Of a stretch of 32,000 bases of DNA, positions 446 through 23,362 are shown piece by piece. The stretch is taken from assembly GCF_000698785.1 (NCBI RefSeq), contig NZ_CP007536.1, forward strand, positions 1,170,001 through 1,202,000, given 5' to 3'. The position numbers were made by a program, and so were the translations under genes. This DNA is from Nitrososphaera viennensis EN76 (lineage in GTDB: Archaea > Thermoproteota > Nitrososphaeria > Nitrososphaerales > Nitrososphaeraceae). Under the pieces are notes generated by a model. The model saw nothing but the letters and a program-made list of their open reading frames with translations. It did not search any database and was not told where the DNA came from. Each line of letters begins with the position of its first letter. The stretch's first letter is position 1.

Positions 446-1633
446 TCAGGTGTAGTATTTGGATTTAAAGGGCGAAAGCGAGCGCAGTTCCTTTACCACG
501 CCTGCAAGCGCAGACACCGTCCTGTCCATCTCCTCTTTCGTGTTCTGCATCGACAGGCTGATGCGAAGCGAGCCGGTTATCTCCTCGTAGGAAAAGCCCA
601 TCGCCTTCAGCACGTGCGACGGCTTTTGCTTCTTGACCGAGCAGGCCGAGCCTGTGGACGCGGCAATCCCGTCTTCGTCCAGCTTTATTATCAGGTCCTC
701 CCCGTTTACCCCAAAGAAAGTGAAATGCGCGTTTGGAGCAAGCCGGTTTGTTTTAGAGCCGTTGAGCCTGCTGTGCGGGATTTCCGACAGGACCTTTTCA
801 ATCAGGTAGTCGCGGAGCGCTGACACCTGCCTCTGGTACTCTGGCAGCCGGCCCCCGGCAAGCTCGCACGCCTTTCCAAAGCCGACGATGCCCGGGACGT
901 TTTCGGTGCCCGAGCGCATGGCAGATTCCTGCCCGCCGCCGTGGATTATCGGCATTATCTCCAGCCCGTCGCGGATGTACAGCGCCCCGACGCCTTTGGG
1001 CCCGTTTATCTTGTGCGACGACATTGAAAGCAGGTCGACTCCAAGGTCCCTGACGTCAACCGGCATCTTGCCGGCGGCCTGCACCGCGTCGGTGTGAAAG
1101 AGGGCGCCGGCGTCGTGCGCAATCCGGGCAAGCTCCTTTACCGGCTGGATGGTGCCCACCTCGTTGTTTGCGTGCATGATGCTGACAAGCGCTGTCGAGG
1201 GCGTGATCGCCCCCTTGAGGTCCTCCGGCCTCACCAGCCCTTCCTGAGTGACCGGCAGAAACGTCACGCTGTAGCCCAGCCTTTCAAGGTCGCGGCATGG
1301 CTCTAGCACGGCGTCGTGCTCGATGTAGCTTGTTATCACGTGGTTTTTTGACGGGTCCTTGCTTCTCGCATAGTCGGCTGTCCCCTTGATCGCAAGGTTG
1401 TCGGCCTCTGTGCCGCCCGACGTGAACGTTATCTCTTGCGGCTTTGCAGCGCCCACAAGGCCGGCGACGCGCTTTCTTGCAAGCTGTATCGCCCGCGTCG
1501 CCTCCCTGCCAAAGTAGTGTATTGAAGAGGGATTGCCAAACTGCTGTTTCAGGTACGGGATCATTTCCTGTATCACCTCGTCTGCGACGGGAGTCGACGC
1601 CGCGCTGTCAAGGTAGATTCGTTGTTCTGTCAA
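446..1633 (-). CDS. iscS: Cysteine desulfurase, class V aminotransferase (NifS/IscS type)
   Basis: 395-aa ORF. It has the PLP-lysine motif SSHKINGPKG, the active-site loop STGSACS, and a GGTEADN region. Its TTG start (1631-1633) overlaps the stop of the upstream larE-like gene. Confidence 0.9.
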   Translation of the reverse strand: MTEQRIYLDSAASTPVADEVIQEMIPYLKQQFGNPSSIHYFGREATRAIQLARKRVAGLVGAAKPQEITFTSGGTEADNLAIKGTADYARSKDPSKNHVITSYIEHDAVLEPCRDLERLGYSVTFLPVTQEGLVRPEDLKGAITPSTALVSIMHANNEVGTIQPVKELARIAHDAGALFHTDAVQAAGKMPVDVRDLGVDLLSMSSHKINGPKGVGALYIRDGLEIMPIIHGGGQESAMRSGTENVPGIVGFGKACELAGGRLPEYQRQVSALRDYLIEKVLSEIPHSRLNGSKTNRLAPNAHFTFFGVNGEDLIIKLDEDGIAASTGSACSVKKQKPSHVLKAMGFSYEEITGSLRISLSMQNTKEEMDRTVSALAGVVKELRSLSPFKSKYYT

Positions 1634-2442
1634 TCGACCACCGCCAGCTTGCCGCTCTTGCCATATCCGGAAGCGTCTATCGTCACAAAGCGGAACCCCA
1701 GCTCCTTCAGCTTCTTGTCCAGCAATTCCAGTTTTTCAGGGTCAAACATCCTGCCCAGCTCATCCCTTCCCACCTCGATCCTTGCGATCTCGCCGTGGTC
1801 CCTGACCCGCACCTGCCTGACCCCGAATATCGACTTGACTATTATCTCCGAGCTCTCTATCTTGCGCAGCTTTTCGTACGTGACTTCCATGCCCGTCGGT
1901 ATCCTTGACGCGAGGCACGCGTTTGACGGCTTGTCGTACACGGACAGCCCGAACTCTTTTGCCATCCTGCGGATCTCGGCCTTGTCGATGCCAAGCTCCA
2001 CCATCGGGCTTTTCACGCCGTTTTCGCGAAGCGCCCTGATGCCGGGCCGGTAGTCAGACAGGTCGTCGACATTCGTGCCGTCCACTATCAGCTGTGCGCC
2101 GGTTCTTTTCGCCTCGTCTGCGAGGTGCTGGCCAAGCTCTGTACGGCAGTGGTAGCAGCGCAGATTGTCGTTTTTCACGAATTCAGGGTTTTCAAGCTCG
2201 TCGTACTCTATTACCAGATGCTTGATGCCGATCTCGTGCGCGACCCTCCGGGCAGTGGCAAGCTCCTCGTCCGCAAGCGTCTTGTAGTCTGCCGTTATTG
2301 CAATGGCGTTGTCGCCGAGCGCCTTTTTTGCGGCAAGCGCGACCACCGCGCTGTCGACGCCGCCTGACAGGGCGACAATCGCTCTGCTGCCTGCGGGGAA
2401 CCACGAAACCAGCCGGTCAAATGAAGTTGTTGTCGCCGTCAT
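1630..2442 (-). CDS. larE: LarE-like PP-loop ATP-dependent sulfur transferase (nickel-pincer cofactor biosynthesis), Cys-triad (probable Fe-S) subtype
   Basis: 270-aa ORF. It has the PP-loop SGGVDS at residues 26-31, CYHC at Cys96/Cys99, and SNACLASRIP at Cys176. The start/stop overlaps are ATGA with larC and TTGA with the desulfurase. Confidence 0.8.
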   Translation of the reverse strand: MTATTTSFDRLVSWFPAGSRAIVALSGGVDSAVVALAAKKALGDNAIAITADYKTLADEELATARRVAHEIGIKHLVIEYDELENPEFVKNDNLRCYHCRTELGQHLADEAKRTGAQLIVDGTNVDDLSDYRPGIRALRENGVKSPMVELGIDKAEIRRMAKEFGLSVYDKPSNACLASRIPTGMEVTYEKLRKIESSEIIVKSIFGVRQVRVRDHGEIARIEVGRDELGRMFDPEKLELLDKKLKELGFRFVTIDASGYGKSGKLAVVD

Positions 2443-3674
2443 GTCTTGGACGCCACCTGCGCGTTTACGATCTCCAGCACGCGCCTTGCAGGCATATCAA
2501 GCCTTGCGGCGATTATCTTGATGTCCTCAAACTCGGGCTTGGCCCCAATGGTGTTTCCCTGCGCGTCCTTGGCCACCTTCACGTGCACGTTAAAGGTGTT
2601 ATCGCCTATTGTCACGGGCACCGTCACCACGGCCCGCGGGAGGATGTAGCGCTCCACCTGCTGTACGCGCGCGCCGAGCGTGCCCGACTCTGAAAACAGG
2701 ATGGAAAGCACCGCGTTCAGCAGGGAATTGTCTGCGATTACCCTGACAAGGTACGTGGGCCTGCTCTTTTTCGTGATGCCGGGTATTATTGTCACGTCCT
2801 TGGCGCCGGCGTCCGTCAGCCTGTCGACAAGGTTGCCCATCACCTCGCCTGTTGTGTCGTCGACGTTTGTTTCCACGACGCAGACGGCGTCCTTCTCAAG
2901 TGCCACCGGCGAATCGCCTACAAGGACGCGGACGACGTTGGCAAAACCTGTAAACTTTTTGCTGCCTGCGCCATAGCCGATTTTTTCCGGCACGATTGAC
3001 GGGTAATAGTCGACGCTTCCCTCTGCCAGGTTTGCAAGTAGCGCCGCTCCCGTGGGCGTCGTCAGCTCCTCCTTTGCCTGGCCGCCGGCAAGCGCAAAGC
3101 GCCTGCCCTGAAATATGTGCAGAATAGCGTCGGCAGGGTTTGGCACGGTGCCGTGCGAAAACGTCAGCTTGCCCCCGCCCACCGCCACCTGCGTAGACAC
3201 TATTTTCGAGCCAAGAAGAGAAAGGTCCTGAAGGGCAGTGGCGCAACCTACGATATCTGCAAGCGTGTCCACGCTGGACGCCTCGTGCAGGTGCACGTTG
3301 TTGAAATCCTCGCCGTGGATCTTGGCCTCGGCCGAGATTATCGTCTTTATGGTGTCAAGCGCAAACGCCTTTGCCCTCTGCTCAAGGCCGAGCGCGTCGC
3401 AGGTTTTTGTGAGCGCGCGCACCATCTCTGCGCCCTTGCGCTCGTGCGCGCCGTCCTTGTACTCCAGCTTTAGCTGCGTCGCCGAAAAGCCGTGTGTCAC
3501 TATTTTTTCAAAAGAGGCATTGCTTATCCTGCTGCCCTTCAGGCTGTCCTGGCATGCAAATATGGCGTCCTGCACCTTTTTTGCGCTGGCGCCGGCGTCC
3601 ACCAGCGCGGACGTCAGCATGTCCCCTGCGATGCCTGCCACCTGGCAGTCAATGACAGCTAGCTTCCTTGCCAT
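2439..3674 (-). CDS. larC: LarC-like nickel insertion protein (DUF111 family, NPN cofactor cyclometallase)
   Basis: 411-aa ORF. The N-terminus, LAVIDCQVAGIAGDMLTSALVDAGA, matches the characteristic DUF111/LarC opening (D-x-x-x-G-x-x-GDM). The length is typical. It is coupled to larE by a 4-nt overlap. Confidence 0.85.
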   Translation of the reverse strand: MARKLAVIDCQVAGIAGDMLTSALVDAGASAKKVQDAIFACQDSLKGSRISNASFEKIVTHGFSATQLKLEYKDGAHERKGAEMVRALTKTCDALGLEQRAKAFALDTIKTIISAEAKIHGEDFNNVHLHEASSVDTLADIVGCATALQDLSLLGSKIVSTQVAVGGGKLTFSHGTVPNPADAILHIFQGRRFALAGGQAKEELTTPTGAALLANLAEGSVDYYPSIVPEKIGYGAGSKKFTGFANVVRVLVGDSPVALEKDAVCVVETNVDDTTGEVMGNLVDRLTDAGAKDVTIIPGITKKSRPTYLVRVIADNSLLNAVLSILFSESGTLGARVQQVERYILPRAVVTVPVTIGDNTFNVHVKVAKDAQGNTIGAKPEFEDIKIIAARLDMPARRVLEIVNAQVASKT

Positions 3675-6223: not shown

Positions 6224-6326
6224 TGGCGCCGGGAGAGGGATTTGAACCCTCGGGACCCTTACGGGTCACAAGCTGGCTGGATGAATTTTTCCAGGCTTGC
6301 GCCCTCCCGGGCTAGGCGACCCCGGC
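6224..6326 (-). tRNA. tRNA-Ser (anticodon GGA) with a 14-nt intron at the canonical 37/38 position and an encoded CCA
   Basis: I folded it by hand from the minus strand. The parts are acceptor GCCGGGG/TCCCGGC (one G-U), D arm GCCT-AGCCCGGGA-GGGC, and anticodon stem CAAGC/GCTTG with loop CTGGAA[AAATTCATCCAGCC]A. There is a long variable arm GACCC-GTAA-GGGTC (class II), T arm GAGGG-TTCAAAT-CCCTC, discriminator G, then CCA. Confidence 0.9.
6275..6288 (-). other. tRNA-Ser intron (about 14 nt; boundaries ambiguous by 1-3 nt because of an A-run)
   Basis: The intron contains TCCAG, complementary to CTGGA of the anticodon loop. A splicing-endonuclease bulge-helix-bulge-type helix is expected to have this pairing. 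Confidence 0.75.
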
Positions 6327-9450: not shown

Positions 9451-10870
9451 GGAGAGCCGCCAGTTTGGGCATGTATGTGTCGACCTGCTCTTTGACCAGC
9501 GTCTGGTAGTAGCTGACCATGATGTTCACCATCAGGAGTATGCCTGTGCCGGAGCCAAAGACGTTCAGGATATCAGATAGCGACGCAAGGAGGCCGATGA
9601 TGACGCCGCTGATTATCGTAAGCGACGGTATGTACCTGTTTAGCAGCGACTCGACCGAGTTCTCGGAGCGCCTGAAGCCGGGCACCTGCACGTCGGCGTC
9701 AAGCAGGTTCTTTGCGGCCGTCCTGGCCGAAAGCCCGCCCAGCTCCACCCAGAGCCTGGAAAAGACGGTCACGATGGCTGTAAAGAATATGACGTATATT
9801 ATCGCCCGCACAGGGTCCGCGGCCACGTGGTCAAGGCTCCTTGGAGACGTGATATAGTACAATATGCCGCCCGTTGGCGTCTGTTGGGAGCTTGGGTCAA
9901 ACTGCGCTATCCAGTTGAACGCAGGGTTTGCGTTGTTAGGGTTGTAGTTGGCCCACATCATCTGCCCCATGAACACCGCATTTGCGATGAGCGCTGACGA
10001 CAGGATGACGGGAATGACCGACGTGTACAGCAGCTTGATCGGATAGACTGCCGTAAAGCCCCTGTACTTTGTAGAGACTATGGGTATGTCGACGTGTATC
10101 CCCTCGATATACACGAGCACGAGTATGACTCCGACTGTGAGCCCGAGGGCGAACAGGCTTGGGAGCTGGCCCTGGCGGAAGAAGGCGTCCTGCCCGTGGC
10201 CGTCGATCGTGGATTGTATCGTAAACGGCAGTATGCCCGTGGGCCCGTCCTGCGCGGGGAATGGGCTGAACACGCTCCACAGAATCGTCTGGGCGATGCC
10301 GGCCATGATGAACAGCGAGAGGCCAGAACCTACGCCCCAGCCTTTTTGCACGAGCTCGTCAAGCAGCATGACCAGTACAGAGGCGCCGATGAGCTGCGCG
10401 ACTACGACCCCGATTATATGCGGGCCTGCGACGAGCGGGCCGTAGACGCTGACGCCGTACAGCGCGCCCTCTGCCACGATTACTATTATAGTCACTATCT
10501 TGGTCGCCGACGTAAAGAGCGACCTGTCGTCCGGGTTCTTGAAGTCAAGGCGGATGAGGTCCGAGCCCTTGAGCAGCTGCATCAAGAGCCCTGCCGTGAC
10601 TATGGGCCCGATGCCGAGCTCCATCAGCGTTCCCTGCTGCGCCGCAAAAATCACCCTTGCAAACGCAAGGAAGTCGAACTTGGGGTCGCTTGTCACTCCG
10701 TAGAGCGGGATCTGCCCCATGACGAGATAGAGGAGTAGTGCAATGCCCGTCCAGGCAAACTTTTCAGTCAGCGTGATCTTTTTCTTGGGCTTTGGGACCT
10801 GCGGGACATATGCCGACGCCGACCTTATAACGCGGCGAAGGATATTCTCATTCTGAGTCGTGCTGCTCAT
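9437..10870 (-). CDS. secY: Preprotein translocase subunit SecY
   Basis: 477-aa ORF with 10-TM-type hydrophobicity and conserved SecY stretches (GIGPIVTAGLLMQLL, GSGLSLFI). Its position after uL15 is typical. Confidence 0.95.
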   Translation of the reverse strand: MSSTTQNENILRRVIRSASAYVPQVPKPKKKITLTEKFAWTGIALLLYLVMGQIPLYGVTSDPKFDFLAFARVIFAAQQGTLMELGIGPIVTAGLLMQLLKGSDLIRLDFKNPDDRSLFTSATKIVTIIVIVAEGALYGVSVYGPLVAGPHIIGVVVAQLIGASVLVMLLDELVQKGWGVGSGLSLFIMAGIAQTILWSVFSPFPAQDGPTGILPFTIQSTIDGHGQDAFFRQGQLPSLFALGLTVGVILVLVYIEGIHVDIPIVSTKYRGFTAVYPIKLLYTSVIPVILSSALIANAVFMGQMMWANYNPNNANPAFNWIAQFDPSSQQTPTGGILYYITSPRSLDHVAADPVRAIIYVIFFTAIVTVFSRLWVELGGLSARTAAKNLLDADVQVPGFRRSENSVESLLNRYIPSLTIISGVIIGLLASLSDILNVFGSGTGILLMVNIMVSYYQTLVKEQVDTYMPKLAALLGRK

Positions 10871-11288
10871 CGGCTATAACCTCGCCACCTGCTGCCGTGA
10901 TCTTGGCTCTGGCTCCCTCTGACACTTTTGCAACCTTGATAGTGTAAGCGCCGCTGATCTTGCCTCCGCCCAGCAGCTTGTCATAGCCAAGCGCGGTCAG
11001 GTCGAGGACGACCTTTCCCTTTTCGTCGGCCTTGCCGTGCTTGGCAAAGACCGCGTCGAGGTCGCGGACGTTGAGCCACGTGTTCACGACGTTGCGGTTA
11101 AAAGAGTTGAACGCGTCGTGACCAAAGTGGTTTGGTTCTTCGATTACTGTCCTTATAAAGAAGTGCTTGTGCTTGCCAGCGCCGCCAATGCCTCCACGGC
11201 TTCCTGCCTGCCTGTGCTGGCCAATCTGTCCCCAGCCGCAGTACCTGCTTCCACGCTGCCTTCTGCTTTTTCGGAATCTAGTAGCCAT
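10848..11288 (-). CDS. rpl15: Ribosomal protein uL15
   Basis: 146-aa ORF with the basic Gly-rich N-terminus RKSRRQRGSRYCGWGQIGQHRQAGSRGGIGGAG. Synteny is uL30-uL15-SecY. Confidence 0.9.
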   Translation of the reverse strand: MATRFRKSRRQRGSRYCGWGQIGQHRQAGSRGGIGGAGKHKHFFIRTVIEEPNHFGHDAFNSFNRNVVNTWLNVRDLDAVFAKHGKADEKGKVVLDLTALGYDKLLGGGKISGAYTIKVAKVSEGARAKITAAGGEVIADEQHDSE

Positions 11289-11363
11289 AATTAATCACAT
11301 CATCATCCTGTTGCTATTATGCTGGAGTTGTTTCAATTTCATATTCACCTTAATTAAGTCTTA

Positions 11364-11822
11364 CTAGAGCATCCTCTTTACGATCTCGGCAAGCTCCTCG
11401 TCGTCGCCAAGCACGCCTGCCTGCGAGTACTGCTGCTTTGTCTTTCTCTTGAATCCACCCTTTGGCGGCGAAAGTGCAAACCACGGCTTGATGCCCTCCA
11501 CCTTGGACATTGCGATTTTGTTGTCTGCAATTGCCGCCGCAAGCTCGTCGATGCTCTTGTATTCCTTTGGCAGGTCCGCCTTGGTTATCGGCTTGTAGCC
11601 GGCCTTCCTGCCCCTCTTCTCAAGAAGCTCCTTTACCGTGGCCGCGTCGGCCTTGGTCCAGGCGACTACTTCCTTGACCTTGCGGAGCATGCCAAGCGAC
11701 TCGTCCGACTCGGGGACCAGGGTCGCGCGAAAACGCCTGTCTAGGTTGAGGTTGTCAAGCGTGGTCCTTGCCCACGTCGGTATGTTTACCGTGCCCTTGA
11801 TTCTAACAACGAGATATGCCAT
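11364..11822 (-). CDS. rpl30: Ribosomal protein uL30
   Basis: It begins MAYLVVRIKGTVNIPTWARTTLDNLNL, typical of uL30. The ORF track extends it to 11837 through MMMIIM, and I prefer the ATG at 11822. The start is uncertain by up to 15 nt. Confidence 0.9.
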   Translation of the reverse strand: MAYLVVRIKGTVNIPTWARTTLDNLNLDRRFRATLVPESDESLGMLRKVKEVVAWTKADAATVKELLEKRGRKAGYKPITKADLPKEYKSIDELAAAIADNKIAMSKVEGIKPWFALSPPKGGFKRKTKQQYSQAGVLGDDEELAEIVKRML

Positions 11823-11833
11823 GATTATCATCA

Positions 11834-13224: not shown

Positions 13225-14016
13225 TTAACGGGTCTGCCTCGTCGCAGACTTGGCAACAGACGCTGCAAACGCGCCGGCGCCCACTCCGTTGTCGATGTTG
13301 ACCACCGCAAGGCCAAGCGTGCAGCTCTGCAGCATCGACGCAAGCGCTGCGATGCCGTCCGCGCCAAAGCCATAGCCCACCGACGTCGGGACGCCCACCA
13401 CCGGGACGTCAACCATCGACGCGACCACCGACGCAAGCGCCCCTTCCATGCCTGCCACCACCACTATTGCACCCACCTTTTTTGCGAGCATCTCCTTGAG
13501 AGATGGAAACACCCTGTGCATGCCGGCTATCCCGATGTCATAGCTTGTGATGGTGTCGCAGCCCATCGCCTCTGCCACCAGCCGCGCCTCTTCTGCTACG
13601 CCAATGTCAGAAGTGCCGGCGGCCATTATCCCCACCCTGCCGAGCGCCTTCTCCTTTTGTTGTTTTTGCGACTTGGTATTTGCAACAATGATCGTGGTGC
13701 TGTTCCTGCCCACCTCTACTGAAAGGCCCTTTTTCTTTAGTGCAGAGACGAGTTTTGCCAGATCCTTCTTTTTCACCCTGCTCACCACCACCCGGCCGTT
13801 GCGCTTGACTGCTGCCTGCGCGATCCGGAGCGTGTCGGCGTACTCCTTTCTCTCTGCAAAGACTATCTCGGGCAGGCCCTTTCTCATCTCCCGGCCTACG
13901 TCCAGCTTGGCAATGTTGTCGACGTGCTCTATTGCATGGATAGAGATCTCTTTCTGCGCCTCCTCCGCGGTTATCGCTCCCTTGGCGAATTTCTCAAGGA
14001 TGGTGCGCAGATCCAA
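13225..14016 (-). CDS. larB: LarB-like NaAD carboxylase/hydrolase (PurE/AIR-carboxylase fold; NPN cofactor biosynthesis)
   Basis: 263-aa ORF with the N-terminal helical domain ILEKFAKGAITAEEAQKEI. The PurE-like core has GRVGIMAAGTSDIGVAEEA and VVVAGMEGALASVVA. It has a TTG start. Confidence 0.85.
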   Translation of the reverse strand: MDLRTILEKFAKGAITAEEAQKEISIHAIEHVDNIAKLDVGREMRKGLPEIVFAERKEYADTLRIAQAAVKRNGRVVVSRVKKKDLAKLVSALKKKGLSVEVGRNSTTIIVANTKSQKQQKEKALGRVGIMAAGTSDIGVAEEARLVAEAMGCDTITSYDIGIAGMHRVFPSLKEMLAKKVGAIVVVAGMEGALASVVASMVDVPVVGVPTSVGYGFGADGIAALASMLQSCTLGLAVVNIDNGVGAGAFAASVAKSATRQTR

Positions 14017-15498: not shown

Positions 15499-16071
15499 AT
15501 GTCTGGCAAGGGAGGCAAGCGCGACGACAGCTATTTTGCTGCAGACCGCCGCAAAAGGAAAAAGTACATGATGATAATAGTTCCGATTATCGCCGCGGTG
15601 GTGGCAATAGGCGCGGTTTCAGCCCTTTTGTACAAGCCCCCAGAGGTACAGGCAATAAGCGGAGTGGAATGCCACCCCGCAGAGGTCACGAACTACCACG
15701 TCCACTCTCACCTCGACGTGTTTGTAGACGGGAAGAATCAAACGGTTCCAGCTAACATAGGGATAATGTCGTCCCCACGCTGCCTTTTCTGGCTCCACAC
15801 TCATGATACGACAGGCACCATACATGTAGAGGCGCCGCAGCAAAGGGCATTCACATTAGGCCAGTTCATGGACATCTGGAGCCAGACGCACAGTGGCTCA
15901 AAGTCGTTCTTTGACTCTGTGGCAGGCAAGCCGTTAAAGGCGTATGACAATGGCACCGAGTTCCAAGGAGACTATAGGAACATACAGCTGGAATCTCGCA
16001 AGCAAATAGTCCTTGCGTATGGCAACCCTCCGGCGGAAATCCCGACCCACGACTTTGGCAGCCTGCGCTAG
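15499..16071 (+). CDS. Membrane-anchored extracytoplasmic protein with conserved His/Cys motifs (function unknown)
   Basis: 190-aa ORF with a basic N-terminus and one TM segment (IIVPIIAAVVAIGAVSALL). The ectodomain carries CH, HVHSH, C, LHTHD and IHVE motifs. I recognise the pattern from uncharacterised actinobacterial and archaeal exported proteins. Confidence 0.75.
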   Translation: MSGKGGKRDDSYFAADRRKRKKYMMIIVPIIAAVVAIGAVSALLYKPPEVQAISGVECHPAEVTNYHVHSHLDVFVDGKNQTVPANIGIMSSPRCLFWLHTHDTTGTIHVEAPQQRAFTLGQFMDIWSQTHSGSKSFFDSVAGKPLKAYDNGTEFQGDYRNIQLESRKQIVLAYGNPPAEIPTHDFGSLR

Positions 16072-16121
16072 CAACAGCAAAAGCTTGATATGAACTTGTC
16101 AGGCGCTTCTTTCTAGCAAGC

Positions 16122-17456
16122 GTGCCTCCCCGGATAGAGCTGCAGAGCAGGAAAAAGTGGACCGTAAACGGCACCTCAAGGATAAGGCCGGCCCAGGAAA
16201 CCCTGCAAAAGGTCGTTCCGCTCTCCAAAAAGATAGGGGTCACCAGGCTTGCAGACATTACGGACATGGACGTGCTCCGGATACCAAACTATTCGGCAGT
16301 CCTGCCCGGCACCGAGGACTACATCTGGGTGTACAGCGGCAAGGGCCCAACGAGGGAGCACGCGATGGCAAGCGCGCTGATGGAGAGCATCGAGCGCTAT
16401 TCCTCACTGCCTGCAGGAGGCCCGCGGAACTTTGTCAGGGCAAGCTATGCAGAGCTGTCAAAATCCCGCAAAGTATTGCACCCTGACGAGATCGTCGAGC
16501 CGATGCGCTTTGAGTACCGCGACGACATGCCGATGGACTTTCTCCCCGGCTTTGACATCGCCAACGATAATGAAGAGGTTATGGTTCCGGCATCAATCGC
16601 GCTTTTCCGCTACAACCCGCCGGCGCCGGCGGTAAACCCGTTTTCATACTTTCACACAAACGGCCTTGCGTCCGGCAACGTTATAGAAGAAGCCATATGC
16701 CATTCGCTCTGCGAGGTTATAGAGCGCGACGCAATGAGCGTGGCGGAACTGCGCGCAAGCGCGATTCCCTTCCACGTGCTCCGGAGCATCATCCACTCGC
16801 TCAACGCGGCAGGCATGCACACAAGGCCGGTGCAGGCCGACAGGTTCGTCGACGATCCTGGCGTTTTTCCGGACGTCGACATTTCCGAAGTCGAGTTTGA
16901 GCCCGTCAGAAAACTTGTCAAGAAATTCGAGAAAGCAGGCATCCCGCTCATAATAAAGGACATCACGTCTGACATTGGCGTCCCCACTTTCAATGCAAGC
17001 AGCATCGAGTGGGTCACGCACGACTATGGCTACCTTGCAGAAGGCCATGGCACGCACCCCGACGCAAGGATTGCCCTTTTGAGGGCGATAACGGAGGTGT
17101 CGCAGACTCGCGCCGCCAACATCCAGGGAGCGCGAGACGACCTGCGCAAGATAAGGTACGGCGAGAACAACACTGACGACAAGAGGGCGTGGCAGTTCAT
17201 GCCATCGACCAGGAAAATAAAGTTCTCAGATGTAAAAACGTACTTTCACGAGGACATACTTGACGACATCAGGTTCATACTTGGCAGGCTAGGAAACGCC
17301 GGCCTTGACAGGGCGATAATCGTCGACCTGACAAACCCGGACCTTGCGATCCCGGTCGTCAGGGCTATTGTGCCGGGGCTGGAGACGTTCAAGATAACAA
17401 AGTCGGTGATGGGAATGAGAGCGAGGGCGCTTTTCAGGCAATGGCAAAGCCAATAA
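16122..17456 (+). CDS. ycaO: YcaO-domain protein (ATP-dependent peptide backbone amide activation; TfuA-associated thioamidation subtype)
   Basis: 444-aa ORF with a GTG start. It has SYFHTNGLASGN and the ATP/Mg-binding SLCEVIERDAMS motif. Its end overlaps the tfuA start by 16 nt. Confidence 0.9.
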   Translation: MPPRIELQSRKKWTVNGTSRIRPAQETLQKVVPLSKKIGVTRLADITDMDVLRIPNYSAVLPGTEDYIWVYSGKGPTREHAMASALMESIERYSSLPAGGPRNFVRASYAELSKSRKVLHPDEIVEPMRFEYRDDMPMDFLPGFDIANDNEEVMVPASIALFRYNPPAPAVNPFSYFHTNGLASGNVIEEAICHSLCEVIERDAMSVAELRASAIPFHVLRSIIHSLNAAGMHTRPVQADRFVDDPGVFPDVDISEVEFEPVRKLVKKFEKAGIPLIIKDITSDIGVPTFNASSIEWVTHDYGYLAEGHGTHPDARIALLRAITEVSQTRAANIQGARDDLRKIRYGENNTDDKRAWQFMPSTRKIKFSDVKTYFHEDILDDIRFILGRLGNAGLDRAIIVDLTNPDLAIPVVRAIVPGLETFKITKSVMGMRARALFRQWQSQ

Positions 17457-18124
17457 TAATATTCCTCGGCCCAAGCCTGAGCCACGAAAAGGCAAGAAAG
17501 ATTCTGCCGGAAGCCGAGTTTCGGCCGCCGGCCAAAAAGGGCGACCTTCTGAGGCTGGCTGCAAGCCCTGACGTCTCGATGGTCGGGCTTGTGGACGGCG
17601 TGTTCCTGCAGGACTACCCTCCCACGCCGATCGAAGTCTATCAGTTAGCAAGGCGAGAAGGCGTCCTTTTAGCAGGGGCGGCAAGCCTCGGCGCGCTGCG
17701 CGCAGTCGAACTGGAAAAGTTTGGCATGGTAGGCATCGGCAGGGTGTTTGAGCTGTACAAGAGCGGCAAGATAGACGCCGACGACGAGGTCGCAGTCACG
17801 TTTGCAGACGGCGATTTTCATCTCCAGTCAGAGGCGATGGTGGACATACGCTACAACCTGTTCCTTGCGCACAAAAGAGGCATCATCGGCAAGGACACGA
17901 AAAAAGTGCTGGCAAAAGTCGCAAAGGGCACCTATTTCCCGCACCGCAACTACCCGGACATCATCGAGGCGGCGAGGCAGAAATACCGCGATGACAGCCT
18001 GCATGATGACATCGACGCCTTCCAGGCCTACATCGAGAAAAACAGAAAGAGCCTGAAGGAGATGGACGCAATCAAGCTGGTCGAGTTTTTCAGGGCCCGC
18101 CTTGAAGCAACAGAAAAGAAATGA
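17441..18124 (+). CDS. tfuA: TfuA-like protein (partner of thioamide-forming YcaO)
   Basis: 227-aa ORF. The sequence IIIFLGPSL...FRPPAKKGDLLRL...VGLVDGVFLQDYPPTPIEV...GAASLGALRA is the typical TfuA domain signature. Confidence 0.9.
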   Translation: MAKPIIIFLGPSLSHEKARKILPEAEFRPPAKKGDLLRLAASPDVSMVGLVDGVFLQDYPPTPIEVYQLARREGVLLAGAASLGALRAVELEKFGMVGIGRVFELYKSGKIDADDEVAVTFADGDFHLQSEAMVDIRYNLFLAHKRGIIGKDTKKVLAKVAKGTYFPHRNYPDIIEAARQKYRDDSLHDDIDAFQAYIEKNRKSLKEMDAIKLVEFFRARLEATEKK

Positions 18125-18791: not shown

Positions 18792-18974
18792 TTGGACCAC
18801 ATCAAAAACGTCACCCTCATTATCGTGATAACAACGCTCATGGCGTTTGGCCTGATAGGCGTGACTCTTCTTATCGACCTCCTCCCGATACCAGCAATGC
18901 ACGCCCCCACCACTACTACTGCTGCTGCCAACGCTATCGACCAAGTAGCTTTAAAATCGGGTTTTGCCAATTGA
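18792..18974 (+). CDS. Possible 60-aa single-TM protein (TTG start)
   Basis: It has a hydrophobic core LIIVITTLMAFGLIGVTLLIDLL. The antisense frame is also open, the start is non-ATG, and a TATA box lies inside its 3' end. Confidence 0.2.
   Translation: MDHIKNVTLIIVITTLMAFGLIGVTLLIDLLPIPAMHAPTTTTAAANAIDQVALKSGFAN
18950..18957 (+). promoter_or_regulatory. TATA box (TTTAAAAT) about 25 nt upstream of the C2H2 micro-ORF ATG
   Basis: The spacing fits a leaderless transcript starting at about 18979. Confidence 0.5.
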
Positions 18975-18978
18975 CAGC

Positions 18979-19107
18979 ATGGAAGAAGAAAAAGTCAGCT
19001 GCCCTTATTGCGGCTCCACCTTCAACGACAAGGAACAACTTTCAAAGCACATCGACAGGATCCACCACGGTTCTGGCCTGCTTGAAGGCGACTCTACTAA
19101 ATGGTGA
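18979..19107 (+). CDS. 42-aa single C2H2 zinc-finger protein
   Basis: My own translation gives MEEEKVSCPYCGSTFNDKEQLSKHIDRIHHGSGLLEGDSTKW. This is a textbook C-x2-C-x12-H-x4-H finger with F and L at the hydrophobic core positions. Its stop overlaps the next gene's ATG (ATGGTGA). It is below the ORF-track cutoff. Confidence 0.6.
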   Translation: MEEEKVSCPYCGSTFNDKEQLSKHIDRIHHGSGLLEGDSTKW

Positions 19108-19677: not shown

Positions 19678-20001
19678 ATGCAGTATTTCACGGCTCTCAA
19701 GATAGGCGAAAAGAGGGTCAAAGTCGCGCAGGACCTTTTGGCAAGGTACACGGGGACTGCGATGCCGGCGCTTGCGCTCAAGGACAACAAGGACAACAAG
19801 TGGGAGCCGGTGGGCGAGGAAAACCTCTATGCAGTGGTGAAAGAGCCGGGCGGATACATGATAGCGCTGTGCGACAGCAAGGGAGTCGCAAAGGCAATCG
19901 CGCAGTGGTTTGCCGAGGACACCAAGAACCAGATTATTGAAAAGATAAAGTCAGAGCAGAACATGCAGGAATATTTCGGCAAGCTTTCGCTTCCGATATA
20001 A
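19678..20001 (+). CDS. Hypothetical protein (107 aa)
   Basis: It starts 1 nt after the HD-gene stop and has coding-like composition. I recognise no motif. Confidence 0.65.
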   Translation: MQYFTALKIGEKRVKVAQDLLARYTGTAMPALALKDNKDNKWEPVGEENLYAVVKEPGGYMIALCDSKGVAKAIAQWFAEDTKNQIIEKIKSEQNMQEYFGKLSLPI

Positions 20002-22326: not shown

Positions 22327-22740
22327 ATGGGCAACAAAAAGCCAGCCGACAACGATGATAACAACAATAATAATAATTTCAACCATCTTTCTCAGGAGCA
22401 GAGGGAAGTGTGCTGGAACAAGGGCACCGAGGCCCCGTTCACTGGCAAGTACTTGAACTGCCACGACGAGGGCACGTACCGCTGCGCCGCGTGCGGAGCA
22501 GAACTTTTCAGTTCCGACACAAAATTTGATTCAGGCACCGGCTGGCCCAGCTTTTACAAGCCCGTCAAGGACGCAAACGTGAAAGAAGAAGTCGATACCA
22601 GCTATGGCATGGTGAGGACAGAAGTCATGTGCGGCAAGTGCGGCGCGCACCTTGGCCACGTGTTTGACGACGGTCCAAACCCCACGGGCCTGCGATACTG
22701 CATCAACTCGCTTTCGCTTGATCTGGAGAAGGAGAAATGA
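22327..22740 (+). CDS. msrB: Peptide-methionine (R)-S-oxide reductase MsrB with an Asn-rich N-terminal extension
   Basis: 137-aa ORF with [10 protein letters not shown], zinc CxxC pairs (CAACG, CGKCG), GHVFDDGP and the catalytic RYCINS. Confidence 0.9.
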
Positions 22741-23036
22741 GCGAAGAGCAGCAACAGCAGTGGTCAGAGTGGCTCGACTTTGACAGGGCGCATGTCGACT
22801 CTGTCCCAGAGGCTGCAGGCGTGTACCTGATGCACGCAAGCATGAAGGTGATGCGCATCGGCGGAAGCGACAACGTCAGGAAATCCCTGTACGAGCTGCT
22901 TGCAGACCCGTGCGCAAGCAAGGCCAAGAGGTTCCACTACATGCTGACACAGTCTCATGCGTCGGTGGCAGAGCAGTTGCTGCAAGACTATAAAGAAAAA
23001 CATCAGGGCAAGCTGCCGGCGTGCATGGAAAAATAG
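22737..23036 (+). CDS. Hypothetical 99-aa protein with a degenerate GIY-YIG-like spacing (GVY-x9-RIG)
   Basis: It has an ATGA overlap with the msrB stop. The sequence [26 protein letters not shown] resembles the GIY-x9-11-YIG-...-R layout. This is a weak call. Confidence 0.6.
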
Positions 23037-23224: not shown

Positions 23225-23362
23225 CTGCCAAAAGATCCTGTTTGCGGAATGGAAGTGAGCGAAGACTCGAAATTCAGGTCCAGAAAGGGCGGCCAGACGA
23301 TCTACTTTTGCTGCCCGCACTGCAAGTCCAAGTTTGACAGTGACCCGGCAAAGTTCGGGTGA
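23225..23362 (+). CDS. YHS/TRASH-type metal-binding domain micro-protein with no canonical start codon covering the domain
   Basis: The frame opens after the TAA at 23186-88 and reads ...ELPKDPVCGMEVSEDSKFRSRKGGQTIYFCCPHCKSKFDSDPAKFG*. DPVCGM-x-V...YFC-x-x-x-C...F...P is the YHS signature. The only ATG (23249) lies inside the motif, and CTG at 23225 would give (M)PKDPVCGM. Confidence 0.5.
   Translation: MPKDPVCGMEVSEDSKFRSRKGGQTIYFCCPHCKSKFDSDPAKFG

What the first reader, a model, noticed from the sequence alone, without database searches (positions are those of the whole stretch)
16122..18124. Orphan YcaO-TfuA thioamidation pair in a non-methanogen context
Seen in sequence: a YcaO-domain ORF (TNGLASGN, CEVIERD) is followed by a TfuA-domain ORF whose start overlaps it by 16 nt, which suggests co-translation. 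Established knowledge: TfuA-associated YcaO enzymes install backbone thioamides. The only characterised archaeal substrate is the thioglycine of methyl-CoM reductase McrA, and bacterial examples act on RiPP precursors. Nothing in this window looks methanogenic, and the gene content looks like an ammonia oxidiser. To my recollection, such pairs in MCR-less archaea have been noted, but no substrate has been established. Inference: the target is an unknown protein or peptide. I found no obvious short precursor ORF between 16072 and 16121 or after 18124. The co-directional His/Cys-rich exported protein 50 nt upstream is one candidate partner.
Basis: partly seen in the sequence, partly recalled or inferred. 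Interest (0 to 1): 0.8.

Follow-up and report, generated by a model that had tools for sequence, protein, structure and literature searches.

The report
Archaeal thioamide enzyme pair, target unknown

Summary
ORF 16122-17456 is a full-length YcaO (Pfam 1.1e-76) and ORF 17441-18124 a TfuA (5e-35), overlapping by 16 nt. The window is Nitrososphaera viennensis EN76. The pair belongs to an AOA-specific clade (100% bootstrap), about 40% identical to the McrA-thioglycine enzymes and below both NCBIfam equivalog cut-offs. The best structural match is M. jannaschii YcaO (6PE3/6PEU).

The presence of this pair in AOA is already published (eLife 2017; Front Microbiol 2021). I found no reported substrate.

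The upstream 190-aa protein is not a conserved partner. It is adjacent only in N. viennensis and N. evergladensis, and it is membrane-anchored with its domain probably outside the cell.

The new lead is a conserved 55-62 aa gene. In 26 of 30 AOA loci outside the Nitrososphaera-like group it lies divergently, usually 64-104 bp, from ycaO. It is clearly coding, folds as a four-helix domain, and belongs to the nitrile-hydratase/NHLP RiPP-precursor clan (profile E = 1e-8). It is absent from this window. In Nitrososphaera-labelled MAGs it sits unlinked, next to a Na+/H+ exchanger.

Most likely function: ATP-dependent backbone thioamidation of a non-McrA polypeptide, with this small protein the leading but unproven candidate.

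The parts
16122..17456 (+). ycaO: ATP-dependent amide-activating enzyme of the AOA-specific clade (444 aa; AIC15636.1)
   Evidence: Pfam YcaO 1.1e-76, full length. Best NCBIfam hit is TIGR03266 at 281.5 bits, below the 365 cut-off. PDB sequence match to MJ1094 (6PE3) at 8e-40. AF2 model pLDDT 86; Foldseek best hits 6PE3/6PEU at E = 2e-29, TM 0.86 on the target. Residues invariant across AOA, bacterial and methanogen relatives include E88, E91, N186, E198, E201, R202, R321 and E325. NJ tree: AOA clade at 100% bootstrap.
17441..18124 (+). tfuA: partner protein of thioamide-forming YcaOs (227 aa; AIC15637.1)
   Evidence: Pfam TfuA 5e-35. NF033432 at 202.1 bits, below the 235.2 cut-off. PDB TfuA 6XP8 at 1.7e-29. 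tfuA directly follows ycaO in nearly all of the 80 loci from archaea and bacteria.
17441..17456 (+). 16-nt overlap of the ycaO 3' end with the tfuA start (translational coupling)
   Evidence: Sequence read directly. Other AOA loci have a 4-nt ATGA overlap, e.g. L012.
16767..16904 (+). Segment of ycaO (about residues 216-261) absent from the methanogen enzymes MJ1094 and Methanonatronarchaeum YcaO but present in AOA and bacterial TfuA-associated YcaOs
   Evidence: The HMMER alignment to 6PE3 breaks between query residues 216 and 262. Alignment A1 shows the gap in P0126 only. In the AF2 model it extends helix 188-229 and adds a structured loop, with pLDDT 84-92. Its role is not known; substrate recognition is an inference.
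16072..16121 (+). 50-nt gap upstream of ycaO with no ORF; presumed own promoter region
   Evidence: Read directly. No function was tested, because archaeal promoters are not covered by the scan tool.
15499..16071 (+). Upstream 190-aa membrane-anchored His/Cys-containing protein (AIC15635.1).
   Evidence: No Pfam or NCBIfam family. Not adjacent to ycaO in any of 80 genome loci. Adjacent only in N. viennensis and N. evergladensis (NTE_02801/NTE_02802).

Best explanation
The two genes encode a working thioamide synthase of a clade specific to ammonia-oxidising archaea. YcaO binds ATP/Mg2+ and activates a backbone amide of a ribosomally made polypeptide by O-phosphorylation. TfuA supplies sulfide by hydrolysing a ThiS-like protein thiocarboxylate. 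Sulfide attack and loss of phosphate then leave C=S in place of C=O. The target cannot be McrA, which AOA lack. The most likely target is a conserved 55-62 aa four-helix protein of the nitrile-hydratase/NHLP clan. That gene is divergently paired with ycaO in most other AOA lineages. It is not in this window and, if N. viennensis has it, it lies elsewhere in the genome.

Shown here: family membership, clade placement, conserved catalytic-type residues, gene coupling, and conserved linkage to the small gene in relatives. Inferred: the chemistry (by homology), the sulfur donor, and the identity of the substrate. I put about 0.75 on thioamidation of some non-McrA polypeptide and about 0.35 on the small NHLP-like protein being that substrate.
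For: Both proteins are full-length family members. The nearest solved relatives are the McrA-thioamidating YcaO of M. jannaschii and a TfuA. Acidic and Arg residues invariant across all three clades are retained. tfuA follows ycaO in nearly all of the 80 loci.

The pair is under strong purifying selection and looks vertically inherited: 80-94% identity among the top 120 clusters, and an AOA clade at 100% bootstrap with Nitrosocaldales basal. The methanogen-type clade tracks MCR even within a 'Nitrososphaerota' MAG. L065 has mcrA with LGFYGYDCQDQCG 4.8 kb from its ycaO-tfuA. The AOA clade is separate and fails both McrA-equivalog cut-offs.

Small gene: it is present divergently beside ycaO in 26 of 30 non-Nitrososphaera-like AOA loci, including Nitrosocaldus and Nitrosothermus. 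The gap to ycaO is 64-104 bp in most. Substitution differences at codon positions 1/2/3 are 0.33/0.25/0.63. Three of the four exceptions also lack an adjacent tfuA. Its profile hits nitrile hydratase alpha at 9.8e-9 and solved NHLP precursors at 8e-4. It gives weak but consistent hits to NHLP RiPP-precursor models. NHLP-type peptides are classical YcaO substrates (established knowledge: Haft, Basu and Mitchell 2010). TfuA as a ThiS-thiocarboxylate hydrolase is as stated in PMC13063428.
Against: No thioamide has been demonstrated in any AOA. The small gene is absent from this window and from all 10 Nitrososphaera-like loci. I could not show that N. viennensis has it at all.

The small protein is predicted to be folded along its whole length, with no disordered core, no Gly-Gly cleavage motif and no hypervariable tail. 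It could therefore be a partner or regulator rather than a substrate. All its hits to curated NHLP models are below cut-off. The fold search was not significant.

No ThiS-like carrier is in the window or conserved beside the AOA pair, unlike in methanogen loci. The genome scan was truncated at 600 candidate rows, so the linkage percentages come from a sample.
Confidence: 0.55

Rival explanations
1. The pair thioamidates a large housekeeping or core metabolic protein of AOA, by analogy with McrA in methanogens and uL16 in Pseudomonadota. Examples would be a ribosomal protein, a subunit of ammonia monooxygenase, or another metalloenzyme. On this view the small NHLP-like protein is an accessory factor or is unrelated.
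For: The only two proven protein substrates of YcaO thioamidation are large proteins (PMC13063428). The AOA clade groups with the McrA-modifying archaeal clade rather than with bacteria (86% bootstrap for the split), and its best structural match is 6PEU. It shows housekeeping-level conservation and housekeeping neighbours, with no protease, transporter or tailoring genes. The Nitrososphaera-like group keeps the pair without the small gene next to it.
Against: No candidate protein is indicated by any conserved linkage. The ribosomal-protein cluster 3 kb away in this window is not near ycaO in other loci. Conserved divergent pairing with the small gene across deep AOA lineages is hard to explain if the two are unrelated.
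Confidence: 0.3
2. It is a conventional RiPP natural-product cluster. The NHLP-like peptide would be a leader-bearing precursor that is thioamidated, cleaved and exported as a bioactive or metal-binding peptide.
For: The small protein shows NHLP-clan similarity. antiSMASH-based mining already labels thaumarchaeal pairs as TfuA-related BGCs (PMC8120280). The closest bacterial relatives (Acidobacteria) have a ~90-aa ORF directly upstream, typical of a precursor.
Against: The protein is only 55-62 aa, conserved and predicted helical to its last residues, with no core region and no Gly-Gly site. No protease, transporter or further tailoring enzyme is conserved nearby. The gene is vertically conserved across orders, unlike typical patchy RiPP clusters.
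Confidence: 0.1
3. The YcaO carries out different chemistry, such as azoline or amidine formation, ATP-dependent peptide cleavage as in MusD, or an accessory role like the old E. coli 'S12 methylthiotransferase accessory factor' annotation. TfuA would then have another role.
For: JGI names many homologs 'ribosomal protein S12 methylthiotransferase accessory factor'. LynD and MusD are also strong structural matches.
Against: TfuA association is the recognised signature of thioamide-forming YcaOs (PMC5589413, PMC8120280). No E1-like, RRE or dehydrogenase partner is present. The NCBIfam YcaO_for_S12 model scores only 36 bits against a cut-off of 700. The nearest relatives by sequence and structure are thioamide formers. 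The JGI names are automated transfers.
Confidence: 0.05

Closest known systems
YcaO/TfuA McrA-glycine thioamidation system of methanogens and ANME (TIGR03266 / NF033432; M. acetivorans MA0165-MA0164; structures 6PE3/6PEU, 6CI7, 6XP8)
   Same: Same two-gene architecture with tfuA directly after ycaO. Best sequence and structural match. Same invariant catalytic-type residues. Archaeal sister clade. The presumed ATP-dependent O-to-S chemistry is the same.
   Different: Only about 40% identity. Both equivalog cut-offs are missed. It forms a separate clade with 100% support. YcaO has an extra segment of about 45 residues (216-261). The host has no MCR. No ThiF/ThiS/MoaE genes lie beside it, unlike in methanogen loci. 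Most AOA have an NHLP-like small gene beside it, which methanogen loci lack.
Bacterial TfuA-associated YcaO RiPP clusters (thioamitides such as thioviridamide, thiovarsolins, and uncharacterised acidobacterial/actinobacterial clusters)
   Same: The YcaO-TfuA pair. They share the YcaO insertion that methanogen enzymes lack. A small gene lies next to ycaO.
   Different: 34-40% identity and a separate clade. Bacterial precursors lie co-directionally upstream and are longer (about 90 aa in Acidobacteria). The AOA small gene is divergent, 58 aa and fully folded, and is not accompanied by tailoring, protease or export genes.
E. coli YcaO thioamidating ribosomal protein uL16 (Rice et al. 2026, PMC13063428)
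   Same: YcaO-catalysed thioamidation of a cellular protein rather than a secreted peptide. It is a precedent that undiscovered protein substrates exist.
   Different: E. coli YcaO has no TfuA partner and carries a C-terminal TPR-like domain. It is a distant structural match (E = 5e-15, TM about 0.5). The NCBIfam S12/YcaO model scores 36 bits against 700.
NHLP / proteusin RiPP precursor peptides and the nitrile hydratase alpha N-terminal domain (TIGR03793, NF038399, PF14407; structures 8TB1, 9CJX)
   Same: The AOA 58-aa protein shares the A-x3-P-x-F-[RK]-x2-L helical motif. Its profile hits NHase alpha at 1e-8 and NHLP precursors at 8e-4. The family is classically linked with YcaO enzymes.
   Different: All curated cut-offs are missed (best 26 bits against 40; 20.6 against 50.9). 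It has no C-terminal core peptide and no Gly-Gly cleavage site, so it consists of the leader-like domain only. It is not encoded in this window.

Membership tests
YcaO superfamily (PF02624) | Full-length match to the YcaO ATP/Mg2+-binding domain above the gathering threshold | tested here: met
   258.7 bits against a 25.7 cut-off, profile positions 1-325 of 325. The fold matches 6PE3 at E = 2e-29.
YcaO superfamily (PF02624) | Conservation of the acidic/Arg residues that bind ATP and Mg2+ | tested here: met
   E88, E91, N186, E198, E201, R202, R321 and E325 are invariant across AOA, bacterial and methanogen relatives and align with MJ1094. Their mapping to the ATP site of E. coli YcaO is from my recollection of Dunbar et al. 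2014 and was not re-derived here.
TfuA-associated (thioamide-forming) YcaO | A TfuA gene (PF07812) immediately adjacent and co-directional | tested here: met
   TfuA at 120.3 bits against a cut-off of 30. 16-nt overlap. The adjacency is conserved in nearly all of the 80 loci.
TfuA-associated (thioamide-forming) YcaO | Demonstrated O-to-S exchange (+15.977 Da) on a substrate | not testable with these tools
   Requires mass spectrometry or reconstitution.
McrA-glycine thioamidation YcaO (TIGR03266, equivalog) | Score at or above the curated equivalog cut-off | tested here: not met
   281.5 bits against a cut-off of 365.
McrA-glycine thioamidation TfuA (NF033432, equivalog) | Score at or above the curated equivalog cut-off | tested here: not met
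   202.1 bits against a cut-off of 235.2.
McrA-glycine thioamidation system | Placement inside the methanogen/ANME clade | tested here: not met
   The AOA form their own clade (100% bootstrap). The methanogen+L065 clade is separate (100%).
McrA-glycine thioamidation system | Presence of the substrate McrA with the G-[FY]-[FY]-G-[FY]-D motif in the genome | tested here: inconclusive
   No such motif occurs in the 32-kb window. The whole genome could not be scanned. Absence of MCR from AOA is established knowledge. As a positive control, L065 has mcrA 4.8 kb from its methanogen-type pair.
RiPP biosynthetic gene cluster (thioamidated RiPP) | A precursor peptide gene next to the modifying enzymes | tested here: not met
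   There is none in the window. In 26 of 30 other AOA loci an NHLP-like small gene is adjacent.
RiPP biosynthetic gene cluster (thioamidated RiPP) | Leader-core organisation, a cleavage site, and protease/export genes | tested here: not met
   The small protein is folded end to end and has no Gly-Gly site. No conserved protease or transporter lies nearby.
NHLP leader peptide family (TIGR03793), applied to the AOA small protein; not in this window | Score at or above the curated cut-off | tested here: not met
   Best 20.6 bits against 50.9; NF038399 best 26.3 against 40. Clan-level homology is nevertheless supported by profile hits to NHase alpha (9.8e-9) and to 9CJX (8e-4).

The most novel reading that the evidence does not exclude
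Ammonia-oxidising archaea use an ancient, vertically inherited YcaO-TfuA pair to thioamidate a dedicated 58-residue NHLP-fold protein that stays intracellular and intact. This would be a third class of thioamidated cellular protein, after McrA and uL16. It would also be the first case in which a free-standing 'leader-only' NHLP domain is itself the end product. Its thioamide might serve as a soft ligand (for example for copper, on which AOA metabolism depends) or as a stabilising element. The copper idea is pure speculation.
Probability: 0.25. Interest if true: 0.8.

Novelty: new variant of a known kind. Interest (0 to 1): 0.5.

Why it matters
Backbone thioamides in proteins are extremely rare. 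Only McrA and uL16 are established, and each sits at the heart of a key machine. AOA are among the most abundant archaea on Earth and drive nitrification. A conserved thioamide synthase in them implies an unrecognised modified protein or peptide.

The existence of the pair in AOA is already on record, so the window's finding alone is not a discovery. What is useful is that the question now becomes directly testable. N. viennensis and Nitrosocosmicus are cultured. A specific 58-aa candidate has been identified from conserved gene linkage. A +15.977 Da search of existing proteomes, or co-expression in E. coli, would settle it. It also warns against the automated annotations 'thioglycine synthase' and 'S12 methylthiotransferase accessory factor' on these genes.

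Tried and rejected
1. Upstream 190-aa protein as partner. Rejected: it is not adjacent in any of 80 loci, is adjacent only in two sister species, and is membrane-anchored.

2. Link to the nearby ribosomal-protein/SecY cluster, by analogy with uL16. The cluster is not near ycaO in other genomes.

3. Link to the LarB/LarC/LarE and cysteine desulfurase genes in the window as a sulfur supply. No conserved proximity: only one methanogen locus had LarE and a desulfurase within 7 kb.

4. Search for a ThiS/MoaD carrier or an McrA-like motif in the window. None found.

5. Search for the NHLP-like gene in the window and in Nitrososphaera-like loci with an HMM on six-frame translations. None found.

6. 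Attempt to prove that N. viennensis has the small gene elsewhere. Two large protein searches and cluster look-ups found many 'Nitrososphaera sp.' MAG copies but no named isolate. The gene usually starts with TTG and may be uncalled. This stays unresolved.

7. Fold search with the small-protein model. No significant hit; it is only qualitatively consistent with NHLP/NHase.

8. Reading Liu et al. 2021 on TfuA catalytic residues. The paper is not held, so TfuA active-site residues were not checked.

9. Absence of the pair from marine Nitrosopumilales. This cannot be concluded, because the genome scan stopped at 600 candidate rows.

10. One literature query was too loose and returned only general AOA papers.
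Full report
OBSERVATION. ORF 16122..17456 (+) is 444 aa with a GTG start. ORF 17441..18124 (+) is 227 aa with an ATG start. They overlap by 16 nt. The first is a full-length YcaO domain (Pfam PF02624, E = 1.1e-76, profile 1-325/325). The second is a TfuA (PF07812, E = 5e-35). The 50-nt gap upstream (16072-16121) and the roughly 47 nt between the tfuA stop and the likely start of the next gene contain no ORF. That next gene is a PduO-type cob(I)alamin adenosyltransferase (Pfam 4.5e-57).

ORGANISM AND CONTEXT. Exact-sequence look-up identifies the window as Nitrososphaera viennensis EN76. YcaO is AIC15636.1, TfuA is AIC15637.1 and the upstream 190-aa protein is AIC15635.1; the genome is 2,527,938 bp. 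The window is ordinary AOA chromosome. It holds:
- a cysteine desulfurase, a LarE-like PP-loop protein and a LarC-type nickel-insertion protein;
- CbtA, Cbf5, kinases and SecY;
- ribosomal proteins L15, L30, S5 and L18;
- a LarB-like AIRC protein and malate dehydrogenase;
- then the 190-aa protein, ycaO, tfuA and pduO;
- a small C2H2 zinc finger, an HD phosphohydrolase and a 107-aa unknown protein;
- an ArgZ/LOR-SDH-like enzyme, a Band-7 protein, MsrB and PadR;
- GatB, GatA and AspRS.
The window has no McrA-like thioglycine motif and no Gly-Gly-ending ThiS-like ORF.

WHAT THE ENZYMES ARE. The best NCBIfam models are the methanogen 'McrA-glycine thioamidation' equivalogs, but both proteins score below the curated cut-offs. 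YcaO scores 281.5 against 365 for TIGR03266. TfuA scores 202.1 against 235.2 for NF033432. The nearest solved structures by sequence are the M. jannaschii McrA-thioamidating YcaO (6PE3/6PEU, 8e-40) and a TfuA (6XP8, 1.7e-29). An AlphaFold2 model of the window's YcaO (pLDDT 86, pTM 0.89) matches 6PE3/6PEU best (Foldseek E = 2e-29, TM 0.86 on the target). Next come LynD, MusD and M. kandleri YcaO, with E. coli YcaO much further away.

Residues invariant across AOA, bacterial and methanogen relatives include E88, E91, N186, E198, E201, R202, R321 and E325. From memory of the E. coli YcaO work, these correspond to the ATP/Mg2+ site. Compared with the methanogen enzymes, the AOA YcaO has an extra segment at about residues 216-261. 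This segment is shared with bacterial TfuA-associated YcaOs. It is modelled as an extension of a long helix plus a structured loop.

PHYLOGENY AND DISTRIBUTION. More than 5,000 homologs were found. The 120 best clusters are all 80-94% identical and come from Nitrososphaera. In a library clustered at 50% identity, identity falls from 63% and 52% straight to about 42%. The nearest named out-group is a Methanonatronarchaeum McrA-glycine thioamidation protein.

A scan of one genome per species returned 80 loci. About 45 are from Nitrososphaerales: Nitrososphaera, other Nitrososphaeraceae, Nitrosocosmicus, Nitrosocaldus, Nitrosothermus and one Nitrosopumilales MAG. The rest are Acidobacteria, Actinobacteria and Sorangium (34-40% identity) and methanogens/ANME (36-40%). 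This scan was cut at 600 candidate rows, so the absence of any taxon cannot be interpreted.

A neighbour-joining tree (85 sequences, 420 columns, 200 bootstraps) gives three clades: AOA (100%), methanogens plus L065 (100%), and bacteria (86%). The window sits in a genus-level clade next to L001. [quoted passage not shown]

L065 provides a useful control. It is a 'Nitrososphaerota' MAG whose YcaO groups with methanogens. It encodes an McrA-like protein with LGFYGYDCQDQCG 4.8 kb from its ycaO-tfuA. So the methanogen-type clade tracks MCR even in that phylum, and the AOA clade is something else.

LITERATURE. The presence of the pair in AOA is already published: PMC5589413, and PMC8120280, which reports eight 'TfuA-related' clusters in Thaumarchaeota. 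A March 2026 paper states that MCR and uL16 are the only characterised thioamidated proteins. It describes TfuA as the hydrolase that releases sulfide equivalents from a ThiS-like thiocarboxylate (PMC13063428). I found no paper linking thioamides to Nitrosopumilus, YcaO to N. viennensis, or NHLP peptides to AOA.

SYNTENY. tfuA follows ycaO in nearly all of the 80 loci. That includes nine other Nitrososphaera-like loci with upstream sequence, which instead carry a ~120-aa CxxC...CxxC protein. It is adjacent only in N. viennensis and N. evergladensis (NTE_02801/NTE_02802). It has an N-terminal membrane anchor preceded by basic residues, so its domain is probably extracytoplasmic (inference from the sequence). 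I reject it as a partner. The downstream block (pduO, zinc finger, HD, 107-aa protein, ArgZ-like) is conserved only within the genus.

A CONSERVED SMALL GENE IN OTHER AOA. Unbiased clustering of all ORFs of at least 30 codons around ycaO in the AOA loci revealed a 55-62 aa ORF on the opposite strand just upstream of ycaO in 26 loci. An example is L012 9740-9916(-): MSSRQKEAEIISEILLKAASEPEFRNILIKDSSSILEKYDISNEAKYIIKKSINDLTQ.

Among AOA loci outside the Nitrososphaera-like group that have at least 600 bp of upstream sequence, 26 of 30 carry it. These include Nitrosocaldus and Nitrosothermus. The four exceptions are L031, L033, L035 and L036. Three of them also lack an adjacent tfuA and form their own sub-clade.

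The gene is clearly coding. Across 29 copies, mean pairwise differences at codon positions 1/2/3 are 0.33/0.25/0.63, and 40% of differing codon pairs are synonymous. It starts with TTG in most loci. Its start lies 64-104 bp from ycaO in most loci. In L012 the surrounding genes are housekeeping ones (PheRS alpha and beta, L15e, RidA), with no protease, transporter or tailoring enzyme.

WHAT THE SMALL PROTEIN IS. Six divergent members all give weak hits to NHLP-clan RiPP-precursor models: TIGR03793, NF038399 (best E = 5.6e-6), TIGR04509, PF14407 and NHase_alpha. All are below curated cut-offs. A profile of 17 members hits nitrile hydratase alpha subunits at 9.8e-9 to 1e-3. It also hits the solved 'NHLP leader peptide family natural product' chains 9CJX (8e-4) and 8TB1 (0.18). 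So clan-level homology is supported while family membership is not.

AlphaFold2 with 35 homologs gives pLDDT 87.9 and four helices spanning residues 2-57 with no disordered tail. Foldseek finds nothing significant. Its better hits are the LigA-like domain of DesB, the proteusin precursor 8TB1 (TM 0.55, 1.9 Å over 40 columns) and a nitrile hydratase. The family has about 800 members, all annotated 'hypothetical protein', from Nitrososphaeraceae, Nitrosocosmicus (including two complete genomes) and Nitrosopolaris.

THE WINDOW'S OWN LINEAGE. A profile HMM of the small protein finds nothing in the six-frame translation of the window or in any Nitrososphaera-like locus: 0 of 10. Many MAGs labelled 'Nitrososphaera sp.' do encode it, but unlinked from ycaO. 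There it is always divergent from a 388-aa Na+/H+ exchanger. On long contigs it also lies near an ammonium transporter, with no ycaO within 10 kb.

These contigs have GC of 0.48-0.53. That is within the range of the Nitrososphaera-like ycaO loci (0.43-0.58; window 0.556) and above that of other Nitrososphaeraceae (0.27-0.42). It is therefore likely, but not shown, that the linkage was broken in this genus and that N. viennensis has the gene elsewhere. No named isolate appeared in the searches or cluster look-ups. A TTG-start 58-codon gene may simply be uncalled.

COMPARISON WITH OTHER CLADES. Methanogen loci carry ThiF/MoeB-like, ThiS/MoaD-like and MoaE-like genes beside ycaO-tfuA, which fits a sulfur relay. 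Eight acidobacterial loci carry a ~90-aa ORF directly upstream, which looks like a precursor. The AOA loci have neither. The AOA system thus combines an enzyme closest to the protein-modifying archaeal clade with a small neighbouring gene reminiscent of RiPP clusters.

MECHANISM AND VERDICT. The best-supported reading is a functional thioamide synthase. YcaO activates a backbone amide with ATP. TfuA delivers sulfide from a ThiS-like thiocarboxylate. The result is C=S (chemistry inferred by homology; PMC5589413, PMC13063428). The target is not McrA.

The leading candidate is the NHLP-like 58-aa protein, at about 0.35. Against it: it is fully folded, has no core or cleavage site, and is unlinked in the window's genus. 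The main rival is an unidentified large cellular protein, as in the McrA and uL16 precedents, at about 0.3. A classical secreted RiPP (about 0.1) and non-thioamide chemistry (about 0.05) are less likely.

The finding is real but not new as an observation. Its proposed partner is wrong. The useful outcome is a concrete, testable candidate substrate in a cultivable organism. I rate it a new variant of a known kind, with interest 0.5.

Noticed in passing
L012 9740-9916 (-) and 25 other AOA loci (L009-L023, L025, L027-L029, L032, L038, L040, L041, L043, L044, L056); unlinked copies at L081 2919-3095, L082 1609-1785, L097 10001-10180: A conserved, unannotated ('hypothetical') 55-62 aa TTG-start gene of the nitrile-hydratase/NHLP clan. 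It is divergently paired with ycaO in most AOA. In Nitrososphaera-labelled MAGs it has moved next to a Na+/H+ exchanger. It is not present in the window.
   Followed up: yes
L065 15965-17632 (-), with ycaO-tfuA at 9995-11832 (+): A low-GC (0.28) MAG labelled 'Nitrososphaerota' encodes an McrA-like protein (LGFYGYDCQDQCG, with Cys where methanogens have Leu). It lies 4.8 kb from a methanogen-type ycaO-tfuA, next to an ABC-ATPase resembling MCR component A2. This looks like an MCR-bearing lineage outside the classical methanogens.
   Followed up: partly
window 446-3674 (-) and 13225-14016 (-): Genes resembling the nickel-pincer cofactor pathway: a cysteine desulfurase (446-1633), a LarE-like PP-loop sulfur transferase (1630-2442), a LarC nickel-insertion protein (2439-3674) and a LarB-like AIR-carboxylase-family protein (13225-14016). 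No LarA-type user enzyme is in the window. Their proximity to ycaO is not conserved elsewhere.
   Followed up: partly
window 19678-20001 (+): A 107-aa protein with no Pfam family is 79-84% identical across the genus. Its HD-domain neighbour is much less conserved (55-60%). Function unknown.
   Followed up: no
window 18964-19107 (+): A tiny C2H2 zinc-finger ORF (47 aa here, called as 42 aa in public gene calls), conserved downstream of pduO within the genus. C2H2 fingers are unusual in archaea.
   Followed up: no
window 6227-6326 (-): A tRNA detected by Rfam (39.1 bits) but missed by ARAGORN. It spans 100 nt, so it probably contains an archaeal intron.
   Followed up: no
window about 22737-23036 (+) and 23249-23362 (+), from public gene calls on the identical contig L090: A DUF7508 protein and a 37-aa YHS-domain ORF lie between msrB and a PadR regulator. 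YHS domains are a putative metal-binding motif often linked to copper.
   Followed up: no
L002-L008, L030, L039, immediately upstream of ycaO (e.g. L008 7567-7929 +): In other Nitrososphaera-like genomes the gene upstream of ycaO is a conserved ~120-aa protein with a C-terminal CxxC...CxxC zinc-ribbon-like motif (RELDWYLRDHLFRQS...). It has no family match. In N. viennensis it is replaced by the 190-aa membrane protein.
   Followed up: partly
L031 7883-9271, L035, L036 (with P0121, P0122): An AOA sub-clade whose YcaO (52-63% identical to the window's) lacks an adjacent tfuA and lacks the small gene. It may be a degenerating or re-purposed version of the system.
   Followed up: partly
L063 9633-9905 (+) and seven other acidobacterial loci: A conserved ~90-aa ORF directly upstream of the bacterial ycaO-tfuA pairs closest to the AOA clade. 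It is probably an uncharacterised thioamidated-RiPP precursor family.
   Followed up: no
one search hit table: JGI annotates AOA homologs as 'thioglycine synthase' or 'ribosomal protein S12 methylthiotransferase accessory factor YcaO'. Neither name is supported for these organisms; they are annotation transfers.
   Followed up: yes
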